Shown: piece after piece, positions 45,260 to 52,098 of the stretch | How positions within the stretch are numbered: the stretch's first letter is position 1 | Layout of the letters: each line of letters begins with the position of its first letter | Source: Shigella phage SSE1 | Sequence record: MK639187 | Reading direction: 5' to 3' (one strand) | DNA: 64,000 nt | Position numbers and translations under genes: made by a program | Notes under the pieces: model-generated | Seen by the model: only the letters and a program-made list of their open reading frames with translations | The model's database searches: none | What the model was told of the DNA's origin: nothing

Positions 45260-45625
45260 ATGAACTACACCAACTTCGAACGCAAATATGTTTCTAATGG
45301 TATCGCTGGTTCTATCGATATGGTTTGTTTGTGGAAGCATAAAAATGGTTCAGTATGTGAAATTGAGCAGTGCATGACTCCTAATTATGTTTATATGCGA
45401 TTTGAAAATGGCATCACGGTTTCAATCACGATGGAAGGTTCAAATTTTAAAATTGCATTAGATGATGATTTCCGTCAGCGTGATTTAGGTACTCATCCTT
45501 GCTGGAACGGTGTTAATCGTAAACTTCTGGTTAAAACTTGGATTCGTCATATCCTGAGTAACCGAGCTAAACATGAACATCTCGAAGCAATCTTTGATGT
45601 AGTTCTTAACGAATTTGATATCTAA
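45260..45625 (+). CDS. hypothetical protein
   Basis: 121-aa ORF. Confidence 0.45.
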   Translation: MNYTNFERKYVSNGIAGSIDMVCLWKHKNGSVCEIEQCMTPNYVYMRFENGITVSITMEGSNFKIALDDDFRQRDLGTHPCWNGVNRKLLVKTWIRHILSNRAKHEHLEAIFDVVLNEFDI

Positions 45626-45660: not shown

Positions 45661-46275
45661 ATGTTTAAAGTTAATACTTTTTATAAAATGAATTTTAAAA
45701 ATGGGGATATTACTCCACGCCTTAAAAACATGTTCTCATATGACCTTATCGAGCCTTTTGAAGTTTTAGAAGTTACTGATGCTGGCTCAGTTTGTGAAAT
45801 TAGAACGTCTGAAGGTAAAATTTATCAGGCAGGTGTTGGTAAATTCAGTAATTGTTTTACTTTAATATTCTCGACTGATTTAGATGAGCATTTTATTGAA
45901 TGTCCTAACCCTAAGGTCTACGAAGTTCCACATCAAGAAACTAAGAAAAATGGCCCACACGAATATACGAAGGTTGAAACTCCTAACGGCGTGATGTGGC
46001 GTCATAACTCTCCTTTTGGAAGTAAAGGAACATTTGCTCAACCGTCTAAACCGTATGACGATGAAAAATACATCGTCGTCTTTTTATCTGAACAGGGTAC
46101 TCAAGACCGTGGATGCCAACGAAGTGGTTTACTAAGTGAACTTGAAGCTCATAACCAAGCACGTGAATTCGTTGAGAAAAATCCTGGTTCTGAAGCTCTA
46201 GTCATGAAAGCAATTACTCAATATATCACTGCTCAACCTGTTGTTCATCCGGTAGAAATTAATTTCGTTAAGTAG
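45661..46275 (+). CDS. hypothetical protein
   Basis: 204-aa ORF with AGGAAA spacer. Confidence 0.5.
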   Translation: MFKVNTFYKMNFKNGDITPRLKNMFSYDLIEPFEVLEVTDAGSVCEIRTSEGKIYQAGVGKFSNCFTLIFSTDLDEHFIECPNPKVYEVPHQETKKNGPHEYTKVETPNGVMWRHNSPFGSKGTFAQPSKPYDDEKYIVVFLSEQGTQDRGCQRSGLLSELEAHNQAREFVEKNPGSEALVMKAITQYITAQPVVHPVEINFVK

Positions 46276-46329: not shown

Positions 46330-46527
46330 ATGAAATTTTTAATAGCACAAACAGTCCAATTAAAAGGTGTTGGAATTCCTGGGGTGATTTTTAAAGTTCT
46401 CCCTGAATTTAAAACCGCCGCTGGAATTATCAATGAAGCGTATGCTGTTCAATGGGTTGATTGGACTTCTGACATACGTATGGGTAAAGAGTTATCTCCT
46501 ATTAAAGGGTTGAAACATGTTGAATAA
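46330..46527 (+). CDS. hypothetical small protein
   Basis: 65-aa ORF. Confidence 0.4.
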   Translation: MKFLIAQTVQLKGVGIPGVIFKVLPEFKTAAGIINEAYAVQWVDWTSDIRMGKELSPIKGLKHVE

Positions 46528-46735
46528 ATTAATCCAGAAATTGTTTGGTACGGAAATGATCGAAGTTACTTATCGTGTAACAGACGTTTTTCCATATTAT
46601 GCAGAAAACCGTTTAGAACCATATGTTACGTCAATTAAAATTCCTAAAAATGACGGAAATTTATCTATCGAAGACCGTATACCTGGATATGGCCATTGGG
46701 CCGATGTTGAAATTATAAGTGTTAAAGATGTCTGA
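46517..46735 (+). CDS. hypothetical small protein
   Basis: 72-aa ORF. Confidence 0.4.
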   Translation: MLNKLIQKLFGTEMIEVTYRVTDVFPYYAENRLEPYVTSIKIPKNDGNLSIEDRIPGYGHWADVEIISVKDV

Positions 46736-47186
46736 ATTAGAAATAAGAAGCAATTTCAAATGGCCGTCATGCGCATTAAGTAACTTTGCTCAATGGCCTT
46801 TTGTTATGGATGGTATTCAATTCGGAGGACTTGAAGGATTTCTCCAAGGATGTAAGGTGAAAAATGTTGAACAGCAAAGACGCATATTTGGGATGTCTGG
46901 ATTGGCTGCACAGCAAGCTGGAAGGTCTTATGCAAGAGCTCAGGACCGTGGGACTCTCTTCTGGATAGGAGTTCCATTTTCAAGATACTCCGAAGCGTGG
47001 AAAGAATTATACACAAATGCATATTTTGAAGCCGCGATCCAAAATAAGGGGTTTCGTGATGCCTTACAAGCCTCTAAAGGAAAAATTTTGAAGCACAGCA
47101 TGGCTAGCGGTCTAACAAAAGATGATACAATACTAACCGAAGCTGAATTTATTGATGTGTTAAACCTATTAAGAGACTCTTTATGA
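46719..47186 (+). CDS. NADAR / YbiA-like (DUF1768) domain protein
   Basis: 155 aa; SNFAQWPFVMDGIQFGGLEGFLQGCKV parallels the E. coli YbiA segment DFSNFAAWPIKVDGKTWPTSEHYFQAQKF as recalled. Confidence 0.55.
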   Translation: MLKMSELEIRSNFKWPSCALSNFAQWPFVMDGIQFGGLEGFLQGCKVKNVEQQRRIFGMSGLAAQQAGRSYARAQDRGTLFWIGVPFSRYSEAWKELYTNAYFEAAIQNKGFRDALQASKGKILKHSMASGLTKDDTILTEAEFIDVLNLLRDSL

Positions 47187-47998
47187 AACCTACTATTTTG
47201 ACTGATATTGATGGTGTATGTTTAAGCTGGCAATCTGGACTTCCTTATTTTGCCCAAAAATATAATCTTCCATTAGAACATATTTTAAAAATGATTCAGG
47301 ACGAAAAATTTATTTCTCCTGGTAAACTATTCAATACCGACGATAACCTCGGTAAACAATTAATAGAAAAATATAATCGCTCTGATTTTATTCGTTACTT
47401 AGCGCCTTATTCGGATGCTCTTCGAGTTATCAATAAACTAAAAGAAGACTATAATTTTGTAGCCGTGACGGCGCTAGGTGATTCAATTGATGCTCGATTG
47501 AATAGACAATTTAATTTGAATGCTTTGTTCCCAGGCGCTTTCTCTGAAGTAATGATGTGTGGTCATGATTCTTCAAAGGAACAATTATTCGAACTAGCTA
47601 AAACAAAATATAACGTGATTTGTTACGTTGACGATTTAGCTCATCATTGTGACCATGCAGCAGAAATTCTTAATGTACCGATTTATTGGTTGGCTCGTGG
47701 TGAACGTGATGCCATTCCTCGTACTGCACAACGTGTACACACGTGGGATGATATTGAATCTCGTTTGGTTCCACCCGAGCATAATTCAGATTCAGATCGT
47801 GAAGACCTTTTAAAACGATTGGCGGATTTGCTTAAAGAATCTGGTACAACAAGTCCAGGTGCATGGCCTAATCAAATTGGCACTCCGTCGAATCCGTATA
47901 CCTGGCGAAACCAAGGACCAACCGATATGCAGCCATGGTGGACGATTCAAAACTTTCCTTTAGATTCGTCCAAATGGACTTGGTCTATAAATTGTTAA
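47183..47998 (+). CDS. HAD-superfamily hydrolase (nucleotidase-like)
   Basis: 271 aa; N-terminal LTDIDGV matches HAD motif I (DxDGT/V); start overlaps the upstream stop. Confidence 0.55.
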   Translation: MKPTILTDIDGVCLSWQSGLPYFAQKYNLPLEHILKMIQDEKFISPGKLFNTDDNLGKQLIEKYNRSDFIRYLAPYSDALRVINKLKEDYNFVAVTALGDSIDARLNRQFNLNALFPGAFSEVMMCGHDSSKEQLFELAKTKYNVICYVDDLAHHCDHAAEILNVPIYWLARGERDAIPRTAQRVHTWDDIESRLVPPEHNSDSDREDLLKRLADLLKESGTTSPGAWPNQIGTPSNPYTWRNQGPTDMQPWWTIQNFPLDSSKWTWSINC

Positions 47999-48007
47999 GG
48001 GTTAATT

Positions 48008-48277
48008 ATGTTTGTAGTTCATGATATTACAGATGGCAAAAACACAACGCGTGACTACGGTCACGTTAACATGTTCTTTCGAGACTGGCCATTGTTTCGT
48101 TCAGTAAAAGACGCAGAAATATTTAAAGAGTGTGTTGAACAAGGGTTCATCTACATTTCAGAATATTATGTTGAAGGTCTCGGTAAATGGATTACCACTT
48201 ATCAGAAAACGCTGAAATCGCTTCTAGATGAAGTGGCTTATAATAGAACCGTAACCAAAATCGAGGACATCAAATGA
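48008..48277 (+). CDS. hypothetical protein
   Basis: 89-aa ORF; stop overlaps the ligase start. Confidence 0.4.
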   Translation: MFVVHDITDGKNTTRDYGHVNMFFRDWPLFRSVKDAEIFKECVEQGFIYISEYYVEGLGKWITTYQKTLKSLLDEVAYNRTVTKIEDIK

Positions 48278-49767
48278 TTTTAGATATTTTAAACCAAATA
48301 GCTGCGATCGGTTCTACTAAAACAAAACAAGAAATCCTTAAGAAAAATAAAGACAACAAATTACTTGAACGTGTGTATCGTTTAACATATGCACGTGGTA
48401 TCCAGTATTATATTAAGAAATGGCCTGGACCGGGTGAAAGGTCTCAAGCGTATGGACTTCTTGAATTAGATGACATGTTGGATTTTATTGAGTTCACATT
48501 AGCCACTCGTAAACTCACTGGTAATGCCGCAATTAAAGAGCTCATGGGTTATATCGCTGACGGTAAACCTGATGATGTAGAAGTCCTTCGTCGTGTAATG
48601 ATGCGCGACCTTGAAGTAGGTGCTTCAGTGTCTATCGCGAATAAGGTGTGGCCTGGACTTATTCAATTGCAACCACAGATGTTAGCATCTGCATATGATG
48701 AGAAATTGATTACTAAAAATATTAAATGGCCTGCATTTGCCCAATTAAAAGCAGACGGTGCTCGTTGTTTCGCTGAAGTTCGCGATGATGGTGTTCAATT
48801 CTTTTCTCGTGCCGGTAACGAATATCACGGTCTTACTCTATTAGCGGATGAACTAATGGAAATGACTAAAGAAGCTCGTGAAAGACACCCTAATGGGGTT
48901 TTAATCGACGGTGAATTAGTTTATCATTCATTTGATATTAAAAAGGCTGTGAGCTCAGGAAATGACCTGTCGTTCTTATTTGGTGATAATGAAGAATCCG
49001 AAGAAGTACAAGTTGCAGACCGTAGCACTTCAAATGGTTTAGCAAATAAATCTCTTCAAGGGACTATTTCTCCTAAAGAAGCGGAAGGTATGGTTCTTCA
49101 AGCCTGGGACTATGTTCCTTTAGATGAAGTCTATTCTGATGGCAAAATTAAAGGTCAGAAATACGATGTTCGTTTTGCTGCTCTTGAAAATATGGCTGAA
49201 GGCTTTAAACGAATTGAGCCAATTGAAAATCAGTTAGTTCGTAATCTTGACGAAGCTAAAGTGGTTTATAAAAAATATGTTGACCAAGGTCTTGAAGGTA
49301 TTATCCTTAAAAACCGTGATTCATATTGGGAAAACAAACGCTCTAAGAACCTAATTAAATTTAAAGAAGTTATTGATATCGCTTTAGAAGTTGTAGGATA
49401 CTATGAACACTCTAAAGACCCTAACAAATTAGGTGGTGTCGAACTCGTATCACGTTGTCGTCGTATTACAACCGATTGTGGTTCAGGGTTTAAAGATACA
49501 ACTCATAAAACAGTTGACGGTGTAAAGGTTCTTATTCCTTTAGACGAGCGTCATGATTTGGACCGTGAACGATTAATGGCTGAAGCTCGTGAAGGTAAAT
49601 TGATTGGACGTATTGCTGATTGTGAATGCAATGGTTGGGTTCATTCTAAAGGACGTGAAGGCACTGTAGGTATTTTCCTTCCAATTATTAAAGGGTTCCG
49701 TTTTGATAAAACAGAAGCGGATTCATTTGAAGACGTATTTGGACCGTGGTCCCAGACAGGTTTATAA
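48274..49767 (+). CDS. 30: ATP-dependent DNA ligase
   Basis: 497 aa; adenylation motif KADGAR; T4 gp30 is 487 aa. Confidence 0.92.
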   Translation: MILDILNQIAAIGSTKTKQEILKKNKDNKLLERVYRLTYARGIQYYIKKWPGPGERSQAYGLLELDDMLDFIEFTLATRKLTGNAAIKELMGYIADGKPDDVEVLRRVMMRDLEVGASVSIANKVWPGLIQLQPQMLASAYDEKLITKNIKWPAFAQLKADGARCFAEVRDDGVQFFSRAGNEYHGLTLLADELMEMTKEARERHPNGVLIDGELVYHSFDIKKAVSSGNDLSFLFGDNEESEEVQVADRSTSNGLANKSLQGTISPKEAEGMVLQAWDYVPLDEVYSDGKIKGQKYDVRFAALENMAEGFKRIEPIENQLVRNLDEAKVVYKKYVDQGLEGIILKNRDSYWENKRSKNLIKFKEVIDIALEVVGYYEHSKDPNKLGGVELVSRCRRITTDCGSGFKDTTHKTVDGVKVLIPLDERHDLDRERLMAEAREGKLIGRIADCECNGWVHSKGREGTVGIFLPIIKGFRFDKTEADSFEDVFGPWSQTGL

Positions 49768-50010: not shown

Positions 50011-52098
50011 ATGTCTGAACAATTAAATGAAGTGTTTGAATCTGAAGGCAGTCTTCCTGTCGTCAATTTGAACCCTAAAGCTAAAGTTCCACAAGTCTGG
50101 AAAATTGGTGATATCGATACAAACATCGTAGTTCGCTTATTCTCTTATCTTTCTGAAGGCGATGCTGTAAAACAAGTTAAACTTGGCGACAAATATGCTC
50201 ATGTTGTTATTATGAGTCTGTCTGAAAAGGGTAATCTCGCTGAATTGAAAAATGGCCTTGGTCCTGCTCCTATTGATGCAATCAACACTATTTTCAATAC
50301 AGTATATGAACAGGTTAAAGCTCTTCGTATGGATGCAGTTCTGTTCCGGTTCCCTACCAAGAAATTGAAAGGACGTGGACAACAGCTTCAAACTCTTCTT
50401 GCTCGTTTAGTTTCTACTAAAACTGGCGGTCGTTTTAAAGTATTGTCAGCAATGTATCAATTCACAGGTAAACACACCTATGTGATGATGGTTCGTAAAA
50501 ATGCCAACATTGAAGATATTAAAGGCATCCCTAACATTAACACAGAGTTGTACACGAAAGTAGATTCTGATGTTGGCGAAGTTTATGTGAGTAAAAAGAC
50601 TGGTGAAAAGGTCACCAAAGAAACGGCTATCGCTGGTTCTATTGCTGCTGTAGAAGAAAAACGTAAAGATAAGCCTGTTATTGCTCGTACTAAAATTTCT
50701 CGTCGTGCTATTGCAGCAAGTCAATCTTTAGAAGCTGACCGCCAAGAAGGTGAGTTATTCCAGAAATATGAAAATTCTGCTAAAGAAGTTAGTGGCCCAG
50801 CTACAGCCGAATTACTTCCTGAAGCATATGAAATCGTACTAGCCCAAGCATCATCCACAGCAAAAGGCACTTTAGTTGCTGATATCGAAAATAAGATTTA
50901 TAATCGTATTGATGAATCCTTTAAATTTGCTGATGAAGTTTCTTATGGTAGTGTTATTAAGCCATCTTTAGAAAAGTTTGCTAAGAAAATTAAAACTGAA
51001 AAAACAACATCTGTTAAAGCATTAGCTGCTTTTGTTGAAGCTGCAAATGAAATTGCAGACTCTATTAAAGACGAATGGTTTGAAGATTTTAGACGTGATA
51101 ATTTCCAACTGCCTGACGACGTTTTAGCTGAAGTATCTGAAAGAACTTGGAAACAACGTAAATCAGCGTTCTTGTCTAATGTGATGTATACTTATGCCAG
51201 AGAATCGGCTAGAGGCACCTTTAATATAACAATGAATCGGGACCCTAAACAATACTCTGTTGCTGAAAAACGAGCTATTCGTGAATATGCCTCTTCTGCG
51301 TATATCGATATCAATAATATGTTGTTAGGTCGTTATAAACCAGATTTTTACGATGTTGCAGATGAAGATGAAGTTAAACGCGCTATTGATGGTCTTGATT
51401 CGGCGTTTTTAAATGGAGACCGTTTACCTGAAGGACTAACGTTATATAGAGCTCAGTCTATCAGAATGCCTATTTACGAAGCAATGGTTAAAAATAAGGT
51501 ATTCTACTTCAGAAACTATGTTTCCACTTCACTAGCTCCTATTATTTTCGGTGGGTTTAAAGAGAACGTTGCCCTTGGACTTGCTCCTGAAGAAGTTCGC
51601 AAAGAGCTTAACATTGACAATAATGACGAAGGTGTTACTATTTCTCCGAGTCAAGTAAGAACAGCTATGCATGCACCAGAACAAATCCGTGTTAACGTTG
51701 GATGGGCTATTGATGGCGCCCATAAAGTTAACGTGATTTATCCAGGACAGTTGAGTAATCACCCTAATGAGCAAGAAATTATTTTGCCTAGAGGCATTCT
51801 CTTGCAGATAAATAAAATTACAGATGCGTCATCTGATACTGGTGCAGGTTTAGAATCCAACCTTAAATTTATTCAAGCTGAAGTCATGTCCTCAGACCAG
51901 TTAGATGAAGCTGTCATTTACGATGGTGATGTTCTCATGGAAACAGGCGAGGTGGTTGCTATGACGGGTGAAATCGAATCAGATGAGCCGGTATCGTTCT
52001 CCTCATTTGTAGAAAAAACTAGTGCTCCTAAAGGATTGAAATTGTTAGCATCTTTAATGGATTTAGAATCAGTTCCGTTTAAATTTGTCCAAGGATAG
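50011..52098 (+). CDS. alt: Alt ADP-ribosyltransferase (head-packaged)
   Basis: 695 aa; N-terminus MSEQLNEVFESEG...; R, STS and E-x-E type catalytic motifs (YRAQSIR, VSTSLAP, EQEIILPRG); T4 Alt is 682 aa. Confidence 0.85.
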   Translation: MSEQLNEVFESEGSLPVVNLNPKAKVPQVWKIGDIDTNIVVRLFSYLSEGDAVKQVKLGDKYAHVVIMSLSEKGNLAELKNGLGPAPIDAINTIFNTVYEQVKALRMDAVLFRFPTKKLKGRGQQLQTLLARLVSTKTGGRFKVLSAMYQFTGKHTYVMMVRKNANIEDIKGIPNINTELYTKVDSDVGEVYVSKKTGEKVTKETAIAGSIAAVEEKRKDKPVIARTKISRRAIAASQSLEADRQEGELFQKYENSAKEVSGPATAELLPEAYEIVLAQASSTAKGTLVADIENKIYNRIDESFKFADEVSYGSVIKPSLEKFAKKIKTEKTTSVKALAAFVEAANEIADSIKDEWFEDFRRDNFQLPDDVLAEVSERTWKQRKSAFLSNVMYTYARESARGTFNITMNRDPKQYSVAEKRAIREYASSAYIDINNMLLGRYKPDFYDVADEDEVKRAIDGLDSAFLNGDRLPEGLTLYRAQSIRMPIYEAMVKNKVFYFRNYVSTSLAPIIFGGFKENVALGLAPEEVRKELNIDNNDEGVTISPSQVRTAMHAPEQIRVNVGWAIDGAHKVNVIYPGQLSNHPNEQEIILPRGILLQINKITDASSDTGAGLESNLKFIQAEVMSSDQLDEAVIYDGDVLMETGEVVAMTGEIESDEPVSFSSFVEKTSAPKGLKLLASLMDLESVPFKFVQG

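What the first reader, a model, noticed from the sequence alone, without database searches (positions are those of the whole stretch)
46719..47998. NADAR/YbiA-like ORF overlapping a HAD-type hydrolase ORF upstream of DNA ligase
ORF 46719..47186 shows the SNFA.WP...G..F...E.F.Q signature of the YbiA/NADAR (DUF1768) family, whose members are N-glycosidases acting on ADP-ribose or riboflavin-pathway intermediates. It overlaps the start of a HAD-family hydrolase (DIDGV motif) at 47183..47998. NADAR proteins have been implicated in reversing ADP-ribosylation, so this pair could be an anti-defence or nucleotide-salvage module. Whether T4 carries homologs at this position I cannot confirm from memory.
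Basis: partly seen in the sequence, partly recalled or inferred. Interest (0 to 1): 0.5.

Follow-up and report, generated by a model that had tools for sequence, protein, structure and literature searches.

The report
Known phage anti-DarT enzyme AdfN
The first ORF is the T4-type gene 30.3, already published as AdfN, an enzyme that strips toxic ADP-ribose marks from phage DNA to defeat the bacterial DarTG1 defence. The overlapping HAD-type phosphatase gene (30.2) is a real but uncharacterised neighbour that published T4 data show is not needed for that defence.

Summary
The window comes from an RB69-like T-even phage (Mosigvirus), and the two ORFs are T4 genes 30.3 and 30.2, lying upstream of 30.1, DNA ligase (30) and alt.

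- **Gene 30.3.** It starts most likely at ATG 46728, not GTG 46719, giving 152 aa. It is 96% identical to T4 gp30.3, which is AdfN. AdfN is a NADAR-fold DNA ADP-ribosylglycohydrolase shown experimentally to remove guanine ADP-ribosylation and to be required for T4 growth on DarTG1 hosts.
- **Supporting tests.** Pfam Phage_30_3 matches at E=7e-69. The AF2 model (pLDDT 93) has only NADAR structures among its credible PDB matches. E36, K43 and the phage-type H123 are invariant. The gene lacks the RB69 frameshift that truncates AdfN.
- **Gene 30.2.** It is a C1-capped HAD phosphatase with all four motifs (D8/D10, T96, K132, D150-D151) and a disordered, hypervariable tail. Its substrate is unknown, with a weak resemblance to 5'(3')-deoxyribonucleotidases.
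- **The "pair as module" idea is not supported.** Immediate adjacency is seen in 14 of 75 informative related loci. Gene 30.2 tracks the ligase gene instead. In published T4 Tn-seq on DarTG1, 30.3 is lost (log2FC -7.25) while 30.2 is unaffected (-0.12).

Verdict: already known, low interest.

The parts
46728..47186 (+). Gene 30.3 / adfN: a 152-aa phage-type NADAR DNA ADP-ribosylglycohydrolase. The mechanical ORF begins at GTG 46719.
   Evidence: Pfam PF08010 E=7e-69. 146/152 identical to T4 gp30.3. AF2 pLDDT 93. The three best Foldseek PDB matches are all NADAR structures: YbiA 2b3w (E 3e-5), 8bau and 8bat. 25/64 family members hit Pfam NADAR.
46833..46856 (+). Catalytic segment E36-G-F-L-Q-G-C-K43. 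The E36 codon is 46833-46835 and the K43 codon is 46854-46856.
   Evidence: E36, G37, F38, Q40 and K43 are invariant in 65 homologues. E36A and K43A impair T4 AdfN (PMC11825919).
47094..47096 (+). H123 codon: the phage-NADAR-specific histidine in the last beta-strand, replacing the Glu of YbiA and the Asp of DarG1.
   Evidence: Invariant. Lies in strand E120-123 of the model. Described as the family signature in PMC11125620.
47138..47186 (+). Intact 3' end encoding the C-terminal helix (residues 138-152). Nucleotide 411 (47138) is where RB69 carries an extra T that truncates AdfN.
   Evidence: Three-way DNA alignment of window, RB69 and T4. The RB69 CDS is 414 nt. [quoted passage not shown]
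47183..47998 (+). Gene 30.2: a 271-aa HAD-superfamily (C1-capped) phosphatase of unknown substrate. The start overlaps the 30.3 stop (ATGA).
47204..47212 (+). HAD motif I, D8-I-D10: the nucleophile Asp and the general acid/base Asp.
   Evidence: D8, D10 and G11 are invariant in 60 homologues.
47468..47635 (+). HAD motifs II (T96, 47468-47470), III (K132, 47576-47578) and IV (D150-D151, 47630-47635).
   Evidence: K132 is invariant. T96, D150 and D151 are at least 90% conserved.
47768..47995 (+). gp30.2 C-terminal tail (residues 196-271): one predicted helix, then a disordered stretch rich in Pro, Ser, Thr and Trp. Hypervariable between phages.
   Evidence: pLDDT below 50 for most of residues 230-271. 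The tail does not align with T4. Family lengths range from 176 to 316 aa.
46517..46735 (+). Gene 30.4 (72 aa, unknown function). Its stop overlaps the 30.3 start by 8 nt, which suggests translational coupling.
   Evidence: phrog_2042 E=2e-34. Junction sequence. T4 30.4 insertions are mildly depleted on DarTG1 (log2FC -1.79, adjusted P 0.014).
48008..49767 (+). Context: gene 30.1 (DUF3045, 48008-48277) and ATP-dependent DNA ligase gp30 (48274-49767).
   Evidence: Pfam DUF3045 E=1e-26. Annotated relatives.

Best explanation
ORF1 (46728-47186) is the orthologue of T4 gene 30.3, published as adfN. It is an early-expressed, single-domain NADAR enzyme.

When a host DarTG1 toxin-antitoxin system releases DarT1, which ADP-ribosylates guanine in phage DNA and blocks replication, AdfN hydrolyses the N-glycosidic bond between ADP-ribose and the guanine base. 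This releases ADP-ribose and restores replicable DNA. Catalysis depends on E36 and K43, which contact ADP-ribose, and probably on H123 in the last strand. The C-terminal helix is needed for full activity.

- Shown for the T4 protein: the in vitro activity, the mutant effects and the requirement on DarTG1 hosts.
- Inferred here: the same function, from 96% identity, an intact reading frame, invariant catalytic residues and a NADAR-fold model.

ORF2 (47183-47998) is gene 30.2. It is an independent, Mg-dependent HAD phosphomonoesterase with a C1 cap, so it probably acts on a small phosphorylated molecule. A (deoxy)nucleoside monophosphate is the most likely candidate, but that is a weak inference. 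Gene 30.2 is co-transcribed and start/stop-coupled with 30.3 only because both sit in the tightly packed 30.x early gene block. It is not part of the anti-DarT mechanism.
For: **Identity.**
- Pfam Phage_30_3 E=7e-69.
- 146/152 identical to T4 gp30.3.
- Same gene order as T4 and RB69.

**Fold.**
- AF2 pLDDT 93.3.
- The top three Foldseek PDB matches are exclusively NADARs: 2b3w E=3.3e-5, 8bau and 8bat. All other matches have E of 2 or more.
- The family profile hits YbiA at E=0.0065 across the SNF...E..Q..K motif.
- 25/64 family members hit Pfam NADAR, best E=1.5e-7.

**Catalytic residues.** E36, K43 and H123 are invariant.

**Intactness.** The RB69 T insertion at nt 411 is absent.

**Function of the T4 orthologue.**
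- It removes ADPr from DarT1-modified DNA. E36A and K43A impair rescue, and deletion sensitises T4 to DarTG1 (PMC11825919).
- It hydrolyses G-ADPr but not T-ADPr or C-ADPr in vitro (PMC11125620; PMC12945103).
- In Tn-seq on DarTG1, 30.3 has log2FC -7.25.

**gp30.2.**
- All four HAD motifs are conserved.
- The helical insert right after motif I (helices 16-72) is a C1 cap.
- Weak NT5C and cdN signals.

**Independence of the two genes.**
Against: - No experiment has been done on this particular phage.
- The window protein itself does not reach Pfam's NADAR model (PF08719) at E<=1. Only its relatives do.
- T4 AdfN works fully only during T-even infection, for unknown reasons, so the mechanism is incomplete.
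Confidence: 0.93

Rival explanations
1. The two overlapping genes form one functional module. gp30.2 would either be the unknown T-even factor that potentiates AdfN, or would dispose of the ADP-ribose that AdfN releases.
For: - The genes overlap by 4 nt (ATGA) and are co-oriented.
- The arrangement is conserved in T4, RB69 and close relatives.
- T4 AdfN needs an unidentified T-even factor for full activity.
Against: - In T4 Tn-seq on DarTG1, 30.2 has log2FC -0.12 (adjusted P 1.0) against -7.25 for 30.3.
- Among 75 informative loci encoding a gp30.3 relative, 14 have 30.2 immediately downstream, 6 have it 0.7-1.2 kb away, 1 has it upstream, and 54 have none within the flank.
- 19 of 21 loci with gp30.2 have the ligase gene within 700 nt downstream, so 30.2 tracks the ligase, not the NADAR.
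- Start/stop overlaps are the rule throughout this gene block: 30.5/30.4, 30.4/30.3 and 30.1/30.
Confidence: 0.06
2. gp30.3 mainly processes soluble substrates, such as free ADP-ribose derivatives, NAD-derived immune signals or riboflavin-pathway intermediates (as E. coli YbiA does), rather than ADP-ribosylated DNA.
For: - The best structural match is YbiA.
Against: - Direct biochemistry and genetics on the 96%-identical T4 protein show DNA G-ADPr hydrolysis and a DarTG1-specific requirement.
- The last-strand residue is His, not the Glu that defines the YbiA family.
- 30.3 has no phenotype in LB versus M9 medium (log2FC 0.12).
Confidence: 0.04
3. gp30.3 is an Acb1-type anti-CBASS nuclease, as one public record labels a homologue (Klebsiella phage Roth21).
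For: An annotated CDS, 'anti-CBASS protein acb1', lies under a 41.6%-identical tblastn match.
Against: - T4 Acb1 is gene 57B. BLASTP between it and the window protein finds nothing at E<=100.
- The two belong to different PHROGs: 755 for 57B, 652 for gp30.3.
- The model matches NADAR structures only.
- No PDB sequence match to any Acb1 entry.
Confidence: 0.005
4. gp30.2 is a virion or baseplate-hub structural protein, as several phage records annotate it.
For: Labels such as 'putative baseplate hub (subunit)' appear under the match in some records.
Against: - It has a HAD enzyme fold with all catalytic motifs.
- It lies in the early gene block next to the ligase.
- T4 30.2 is fully dispensable, with 72 of 72 sites hit by insertions, whereas true hub genes are essential.
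Confidence: 0.01

Closest known systems
T4 AdfN (gp30.3), anti-DarT factor NADAR (Johannesman et al., Nat Commun 2025, PMC11825919)
   Same: 152 aa and 96% identical. It occupies the same genomic position (30.4-30.3-30.2-30.1-30-alt). E36, K43 and H123 match, and the C-terminal helix is intact.
   Different: Six conservative substitutions. The host phage is an RB69-like Mosigvirus rather than a Tequatrovirus. Unlike RB69 itself, the gene is not frameshifted.
DarG1, the DarT1-associated NADAR antitoxin (e.g. Geobacter/Trichlorobacter lovleyi, PDB 8bat)
   Same: NADAR fold and the Glu/Lys catalytic pair. It has guanine-ADPr DNA glycohydrolase activity and is reported to be the closest non-phage clade.
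   Different: The phage protein is the bare core domain, without the N-terminal extension. It has His instead of Asp in the last strand. It has no adjacent DarT gene. T4 AdfN cannot replace DarG1 in uninfected cells.
E. coli YbiA (PDB 2b3w; Pfam NADAR PF08719)
   Same: Best structural match (TM 0.67, E 3e-5). Shares the SNF...E..Q..K motif.
   Different: 18% identity. YbiA has Glu in the last strand and a housekeeping role in riboflavin metabolism.
Cytosolic and mitochondrial 5'(3')-deoxyribonucleotidases (cdN/mdN, Pfam NT5C; PDB 2jao, 1mh9), compared with gp30.2
   Same: C1-capped HAD fold and a DxDGV motif I. They are the best Foldseek and phmmer matches. 11/59 family members weakly hit NT5C.

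Membership tests
Phage NADAR / gp30.3 family (Pfam PF08010; AdfN) | Significant match to the family profile over its full length | tested here: met
   230 bits against a cutoff of 36, profile positions 1-138 of 138. 96% identical to T4 gp30.3.
Phage NADAR / gp30.3 family (Pfam PF08010; AdfN) | Histidine in the last beta-strand in place of Glu (YbiA) or Asp (DarG1) | tested here: met
   H123 is invariant in 65 sequences and lies in strand 120-123 of the model. The criterion comes from PMC11125620.
Phage NADAR / gp30.3 family (Pfam PF08010; AdfN) | Full-length product including the C-terminal helix, i.e. not the RB69 frameshift allele | tested here: met
   No T insertion at nt 411. The ORF runs to residue 152.
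Phage NADAR / gp30.3 family (Pfam PF08010; AdfN) | Hydrolysis of guanine-linked ADP-ribose on DNA, and protection from DarTG1 | not testable with these tools
   Shown only for the T4 and T2 orthologues.
NADAR superfamily (YbiA fold) | YbiA fold: a helical core flanked by two small beta-sheets | tested here: met
   AF2 pLDDT 93. The top three Foldseek PDB matches are all NADARs, with TM 0.58-0.67.
NADAR superfamily (YbiA fold) | Conserved catalytic Glu and Lys in the E-x-x-x-Q-x-x-K motif | tested here: met
   E36, Q40 and K43 are invariant. They align to the YbiA motif.
NADAR superfamily (YbiA fold) | Match to Pfam NADAR (PF08719) | tested here: inconclusive
   The window protein does not hit at E<=1. 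25 of 64 family members do, best E=1.5e-7.
HAD superfamily phosphatase (gp30.2) | Four catalytic motifs: DxD, T/S, K/R and DD | tested here: met
   D8/D10, T96, K132 and D150-D151 are invariant or at least 90% conserved in 60 homologues.
HAD superfamily phosphatase (gp30.2) | Rossmannoid HAD core fold with a cap inserted after motif I (C1) | tested here: met
HAD superfamily phosphatase (gp30.2) | Curated profile score above threshold | tested here: not met
   HAD_2 scores 15.5 bits against a cutoff of 23.8. TIGR01428 scores 12.7 against 125. This is a divergent phage-specific family (phrog_420).
5'(3')-deoxyribonucleotidase (NT5C) family (gp30.2) | Significant profile match and nucleotide-binding cap residues | tested here: inconclusive
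   14 loci immediately adjacent, against 54 with no gp30.2 within the flank, out of 75 informative loci.
   Published T4 Tn-seq on DarTG1: 30.3 at -7.25, 30.2 at -0.12.

The most novel reading that the evidence does not exclude
gp30.2 is an uncharacterised, phage-specific capped HAD phosphatase. It is nearly always encoded just upstream of the DNA ligase in T4-like phages and carries a hypervariable disordered tail. It might have a still-unknown role in counter-defence or in shaping the nucleotide pool, for example degrading a phosphorylated nucleotide-derived immune signal. Alternatively, it might act redundantly with another factor to potentiate AdfN or to clear AdfN's ADP-ribose product. 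The single-gene Tn-seq data do not exclude a redundant role.
Probability: 0.08. Interest if true: 0.5.

Novelty: already known. Interest (0 to 1): 0.12.

Why it matters
It matters little as a discovery. The NADAR assignment of gp30.3 was made bioinformatically years ago, and its anti-DarTG1 function, catalytic residues and substrate specificity were published in 2024-2026. Three results have practical value:

- This RB69-like phage carries an intact adfN, unlike RB69 itself, so it is predicted to resist DarTG1.
- The tempting "NADAR + HAD module" reading can be set aside.
- gp30.2 remains one of the T4-core early enzymes with a clear catalytic fold and no known substrate or phenotype.

Tried and rejected
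- **Direct PDB sequence search with gp30.3.** No hits at E<=10. Only the family profile reached YbiA.
- **NCBIfam.** Nothing useful for either protein.
- **Acb1 identity,** suggested by one record's annotation. Rejected.
- **gp30.2 as AdfN partner.** Rejected on neighbourhood statistics and T4 Tn-seq.
- **Search for any other conserved neighbour of gp30.3** that might be the unknown T-even potentiating factor. Clustering of flanking ORFs in 80 loci found none beyond the T4-core block.
- **Promoter and terminator scan of 43.5-52.5 kb.** Counts were no higher than in shuffled sequence, so uninformative.
- **Literature searches** for 'gp30.2' and for 30.2 with 'haloacid dehalogenase'. No papers found.
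- **T4's annotated internal ORF 30.3'.** Not conserved here.

Full report
**1. What is in the sequence**

The ORF list for 44-51 kb shows a tightly packed, co-oriented (+) block:
- 45260-45625
- 45661-46275
- 46330-46527
- 46517-46735
- 46719/46728-47186
- 47183-47998
- 48008-48277
- 48274-49767 (497 aa)
- 50011-52098 (695 aa)

Megablast of 45.6-50.0 kb finds 694 T-even phage records. The best is Escherichia phage HY126 at 98.7%. In the annotated Mosigvirus S143_2 the same genes are labelled as the T4 "Gp30-rIII intergenic region" proteins, followed by DNA ligase and the Alt ADP-ribosyltransferase. The T4 reference has the identical order, 30.5-30.4-30.3-30.2-30.1-30, and there too 30.3 and 30.2 overlap by 4 nt. 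RB69 has the same arrangement. The window's gp30.2 is 98% identical to that of RB69, so the window comes from an RB69-like Mosigvirus.

The real start of the first gene is almost certainly ATG 46728:
- Annotated CDSs are 459 nt.
- This ATG overlaps the stop of gene 30.4 (ATGTCTGA).
- It reproduces the published T4 residue numbering.

The DIDGV motif is at residues 8-12 of the second ORF, and the ATGA overlap is real.

**2. Gene 30.3 is a NADAR enzyme**

Profile and sequence evidence:
- Pfam gives a full-length hit to Phage_30_3 (PF08010, E=7e-69).
- The protein is 146/152 identical to T4 gp30.3.
- 108 homologues were retrieved. In an alignment of 65 sequences, S18-N19-F20, E36, G37, F38, Q40, K43 and H123 are invariant.
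- The family profile hits E. coli YbiA in the PDB across exactly this motif (E=0.0065).
- 25 of 64 family members individually hit Pfam NADAR (best E=1.5e-7), although the window protein itself does not.

Structural evidence:
- An AlphaFold2 model has mean pLDDT 93.3.
- Its only credible Foldseek matches in the PDB are the three NADAR structures: YbiA 2b3w (E=3.3e-5, TM 0.67), Phytophthora NADAR with ADP-ribose (8bau), and Geobacter lovleyi DarG1-type NADAR (8bat). Every other match has E of 2 or more.
- H123 lies in the last beta-strand of the model.

The frame is under purifying selection, with 35 synonymous and 6 non-synonymous codon differences against T4.

**3. This is already known biology**

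Johannesman et al. (Nat Commun 2025, PMC11825919) mapped DarTG1 resistance of T2 and T4 to gene 30.3 and renamed it adfN. Their findings:
- Deletion sensitises T4 to DarTG1.
- The purified protein removes ADP-ribose from DarT1-modified DNA.
- E36A and K43A impair function.
- RB69 is sensitive because a T insertion at nt 411 truncates the last 15 residues, which form a helix needed for full activity.

Two papers in Toxins add biochemistry. The T4 NADAR hydrolyses guanine-ADPr on DNA but not thymine- or cytidine-ADPr. [quoted passage not shown]

A T4 transposon-sequencing preprint (10.1101/2025.11.20.689424) independently finds 30.3 insertions lost on DarTG1 hosts.

I verified the RB69 lesion directly. 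In the three-way DNA alignment, RB69 has the extra T at gene position 411, while the window and T4 do not. The window therefore encodes a full-length, catalytically complete AdfN. Unlike RB69, this phage is predicted to resist DarTG1.

**4. Gene 30.2 is a HAD phosphatase of unknown substrate**

Sequence profiles are weak:
- HAD_2 scores 15.5 bits, below its cutoff.
- The best PDB sequence hit is mouse 5'(3')-deoxyribonucleotidase, at E=0.5 for the single sequence and 0.18 for the profile.

The motif and fold evidence is strong:
- In 60 homologues all four HAD motifs are conserved: D8-x-D10-G11, T96, K132 and D150-D151.
- The AF2 model is confident for residues 1-220 and disordered beyond about 230.
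- Foldseek returns 103 hits at E<=1e-3, all HAD-type in the part of the list shown, led by cdN 2jao and a staphylococcal deoxyribonucleotidase-like protein.

From established knowledge of HAD enzymes, the Asp at position +2 and the DD motif IV point to a Mg-dependent phosphatase rather than a dehalogenase. The helical cap inserted after motif I points to a small-molecule substrate. A (d)NMP substrate is only a weak inference: 11/59 members hit NT5C, best E=0.002.

The C-terminal tail of about 75 residues is rich in Pro, Ser, Thr and Trp. It does not align even with T4, and it is absent or different in many relatives.

No literature on gp30.2 was found. In T4 it is non-essential (72/72 sites hit by insertions) and has no phenotype in M9 medium.

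**5. The two genes are not a module**

I fetched 80 viral loci that encode a gp30.3 relative and searched them with profiles for gp30.2 and its neighbours. Of the 75 loci with enough downstream sequence:
- 14 have gp30.2 immediately downstream. All are close T4 or RB69 relatives.
- 6 have it 0.7-1.2 kb downstream.
- 1 has it upstream.
- 54 have none within the flank, which extends up to 5 kb.

Conversely, 19 of the 21 loci with gp30.2 have the ligase gene within 700 nt downstream. Clustering of all flanking ORFs found no universally conserved neighbour of gp30.3.

The DarTG1 sheet of the T4 Tn-seq table (identified by sheet order and by 30.3 being the hit) gives:
- 30.3: log2FC -7.25, adjusted P 0.
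- 30.2: log2FC -0.12, adjusted P 1.0.

Start/stop overlaps occur at most junctions of this block, so the ATGA overlap reflects the compact T4 early operon style, not a specific functional pairing. A redundant or accessory link cannot be fully excluded, because T4 AdfN needs an unidentified T-even factor for full activity. I put that at about 6-8%.

**6. Other readings rejected**
- One public record labels a homologue "anti-CBASS protein acb1". T4 Acb1 is gene 57B, which shares no detectable similarity with the window protein and belongs to a different PHROG. The label is a misannotation.
- "Baseplate hub" labels on gp30.2 in some records conflict with its enzyme fold and with its dispensability in T4.

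**7. Verdict**

The NADAR and HAD identifications are correct, and the anti-DarT idea is correct but already published for the 96%-identical T4 protein. The substrate is guanine-ADPr, not thymine-ADPr. The "pair as module" idea is not supported. Novelty: already known. Interest: low.

Noticed in passing
window 46864-47091 (+), frame +2 relative to gene 30.3: T4 annotates an internal out-of-frame ORF, 30.3' (75 aa), inside 30.3. In the window the same frame is interrupted by a stop after 34 codons. Meanwhile the 30.3 frame shows 35 synonymous and 6 non-synonymous codon changes against T4. So 30.3' is probably not a conserved gene.
   Followed up: yes
window 46517-46735 (+), gene 30.4: In published T4 Tn-seq on DarTG1, insertions in 30.4 are significantly depleted (log2FC -1.79, adjusted P 0.014). 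Its stop overlaps the 30.3 start by 8 nt, and 30.3 has a weak Shine-Dalgarno sequence. A polar or translational-coupling effect is therefore likely, but a real accessory role for gp30.4 is not excluded.
   Followed up: partly
L083:3001-3450 (Klebsiella phage Roth21, PQ657794.1): A gp30.3/NADAR homologue is annotated as 'anti-CBASS protein acb1'. It belongs to phrog_652, like gp30.3, and is unrelated to T4 57B/Acb1 (phrog_755). This is a misannotation that could spread to other records.
   Followed up: yes
window 45661-46275 (+): A 204-aa ORF (phrog_17531, no Pfam hit) sits where T4 and RB69 have gene 30.6. It looks like a variable insertion or replacement spot within the 30.x block.
   Followed up: no
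window 47768-47995 (+), gp30.2 tail: The C-terminal 75 or so residues of gp30.2 are predicted to be disordered, are rich in Trp, Pro, Ser and Thr, and are hypervariable. They do not align with T4, although the catalytic core is 86% identical. Relatives range from 176 to 316 aa. The reason for this variability is unknown.
   Followed up: partly
L085:8268-8681 (RB69 gene 30.3), compared with window 47138: The RB69 frameshift, an extra T at nt 411 giving a 137-aa product, was confirmed directly. The window, although RB69-like (gp30.2 98% identical), carries the intact allele.
   Followed up: yes
window 50011-52098 (+): The Alt ADP-ribosyltransferase gene lies about 2.8 kb downstream of adfN in the same orientation. 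So an ADP-ribose 'writer' acting on host proteins and an 'eraser' acting on phage DNA share one early gene region. This arrangement was noted earlier in comparative-genomics work (PMC9503650).
   Followed up: no
PMC11125620, Methods section 4.2: The paper lists its T4 NADAR construct as 'gp30.3; residues 1-208', whereas T4 gp30.3 is 152 aa. This may be a typo or may include tag residues. It could not be resolved from the text.
   Followed up: no
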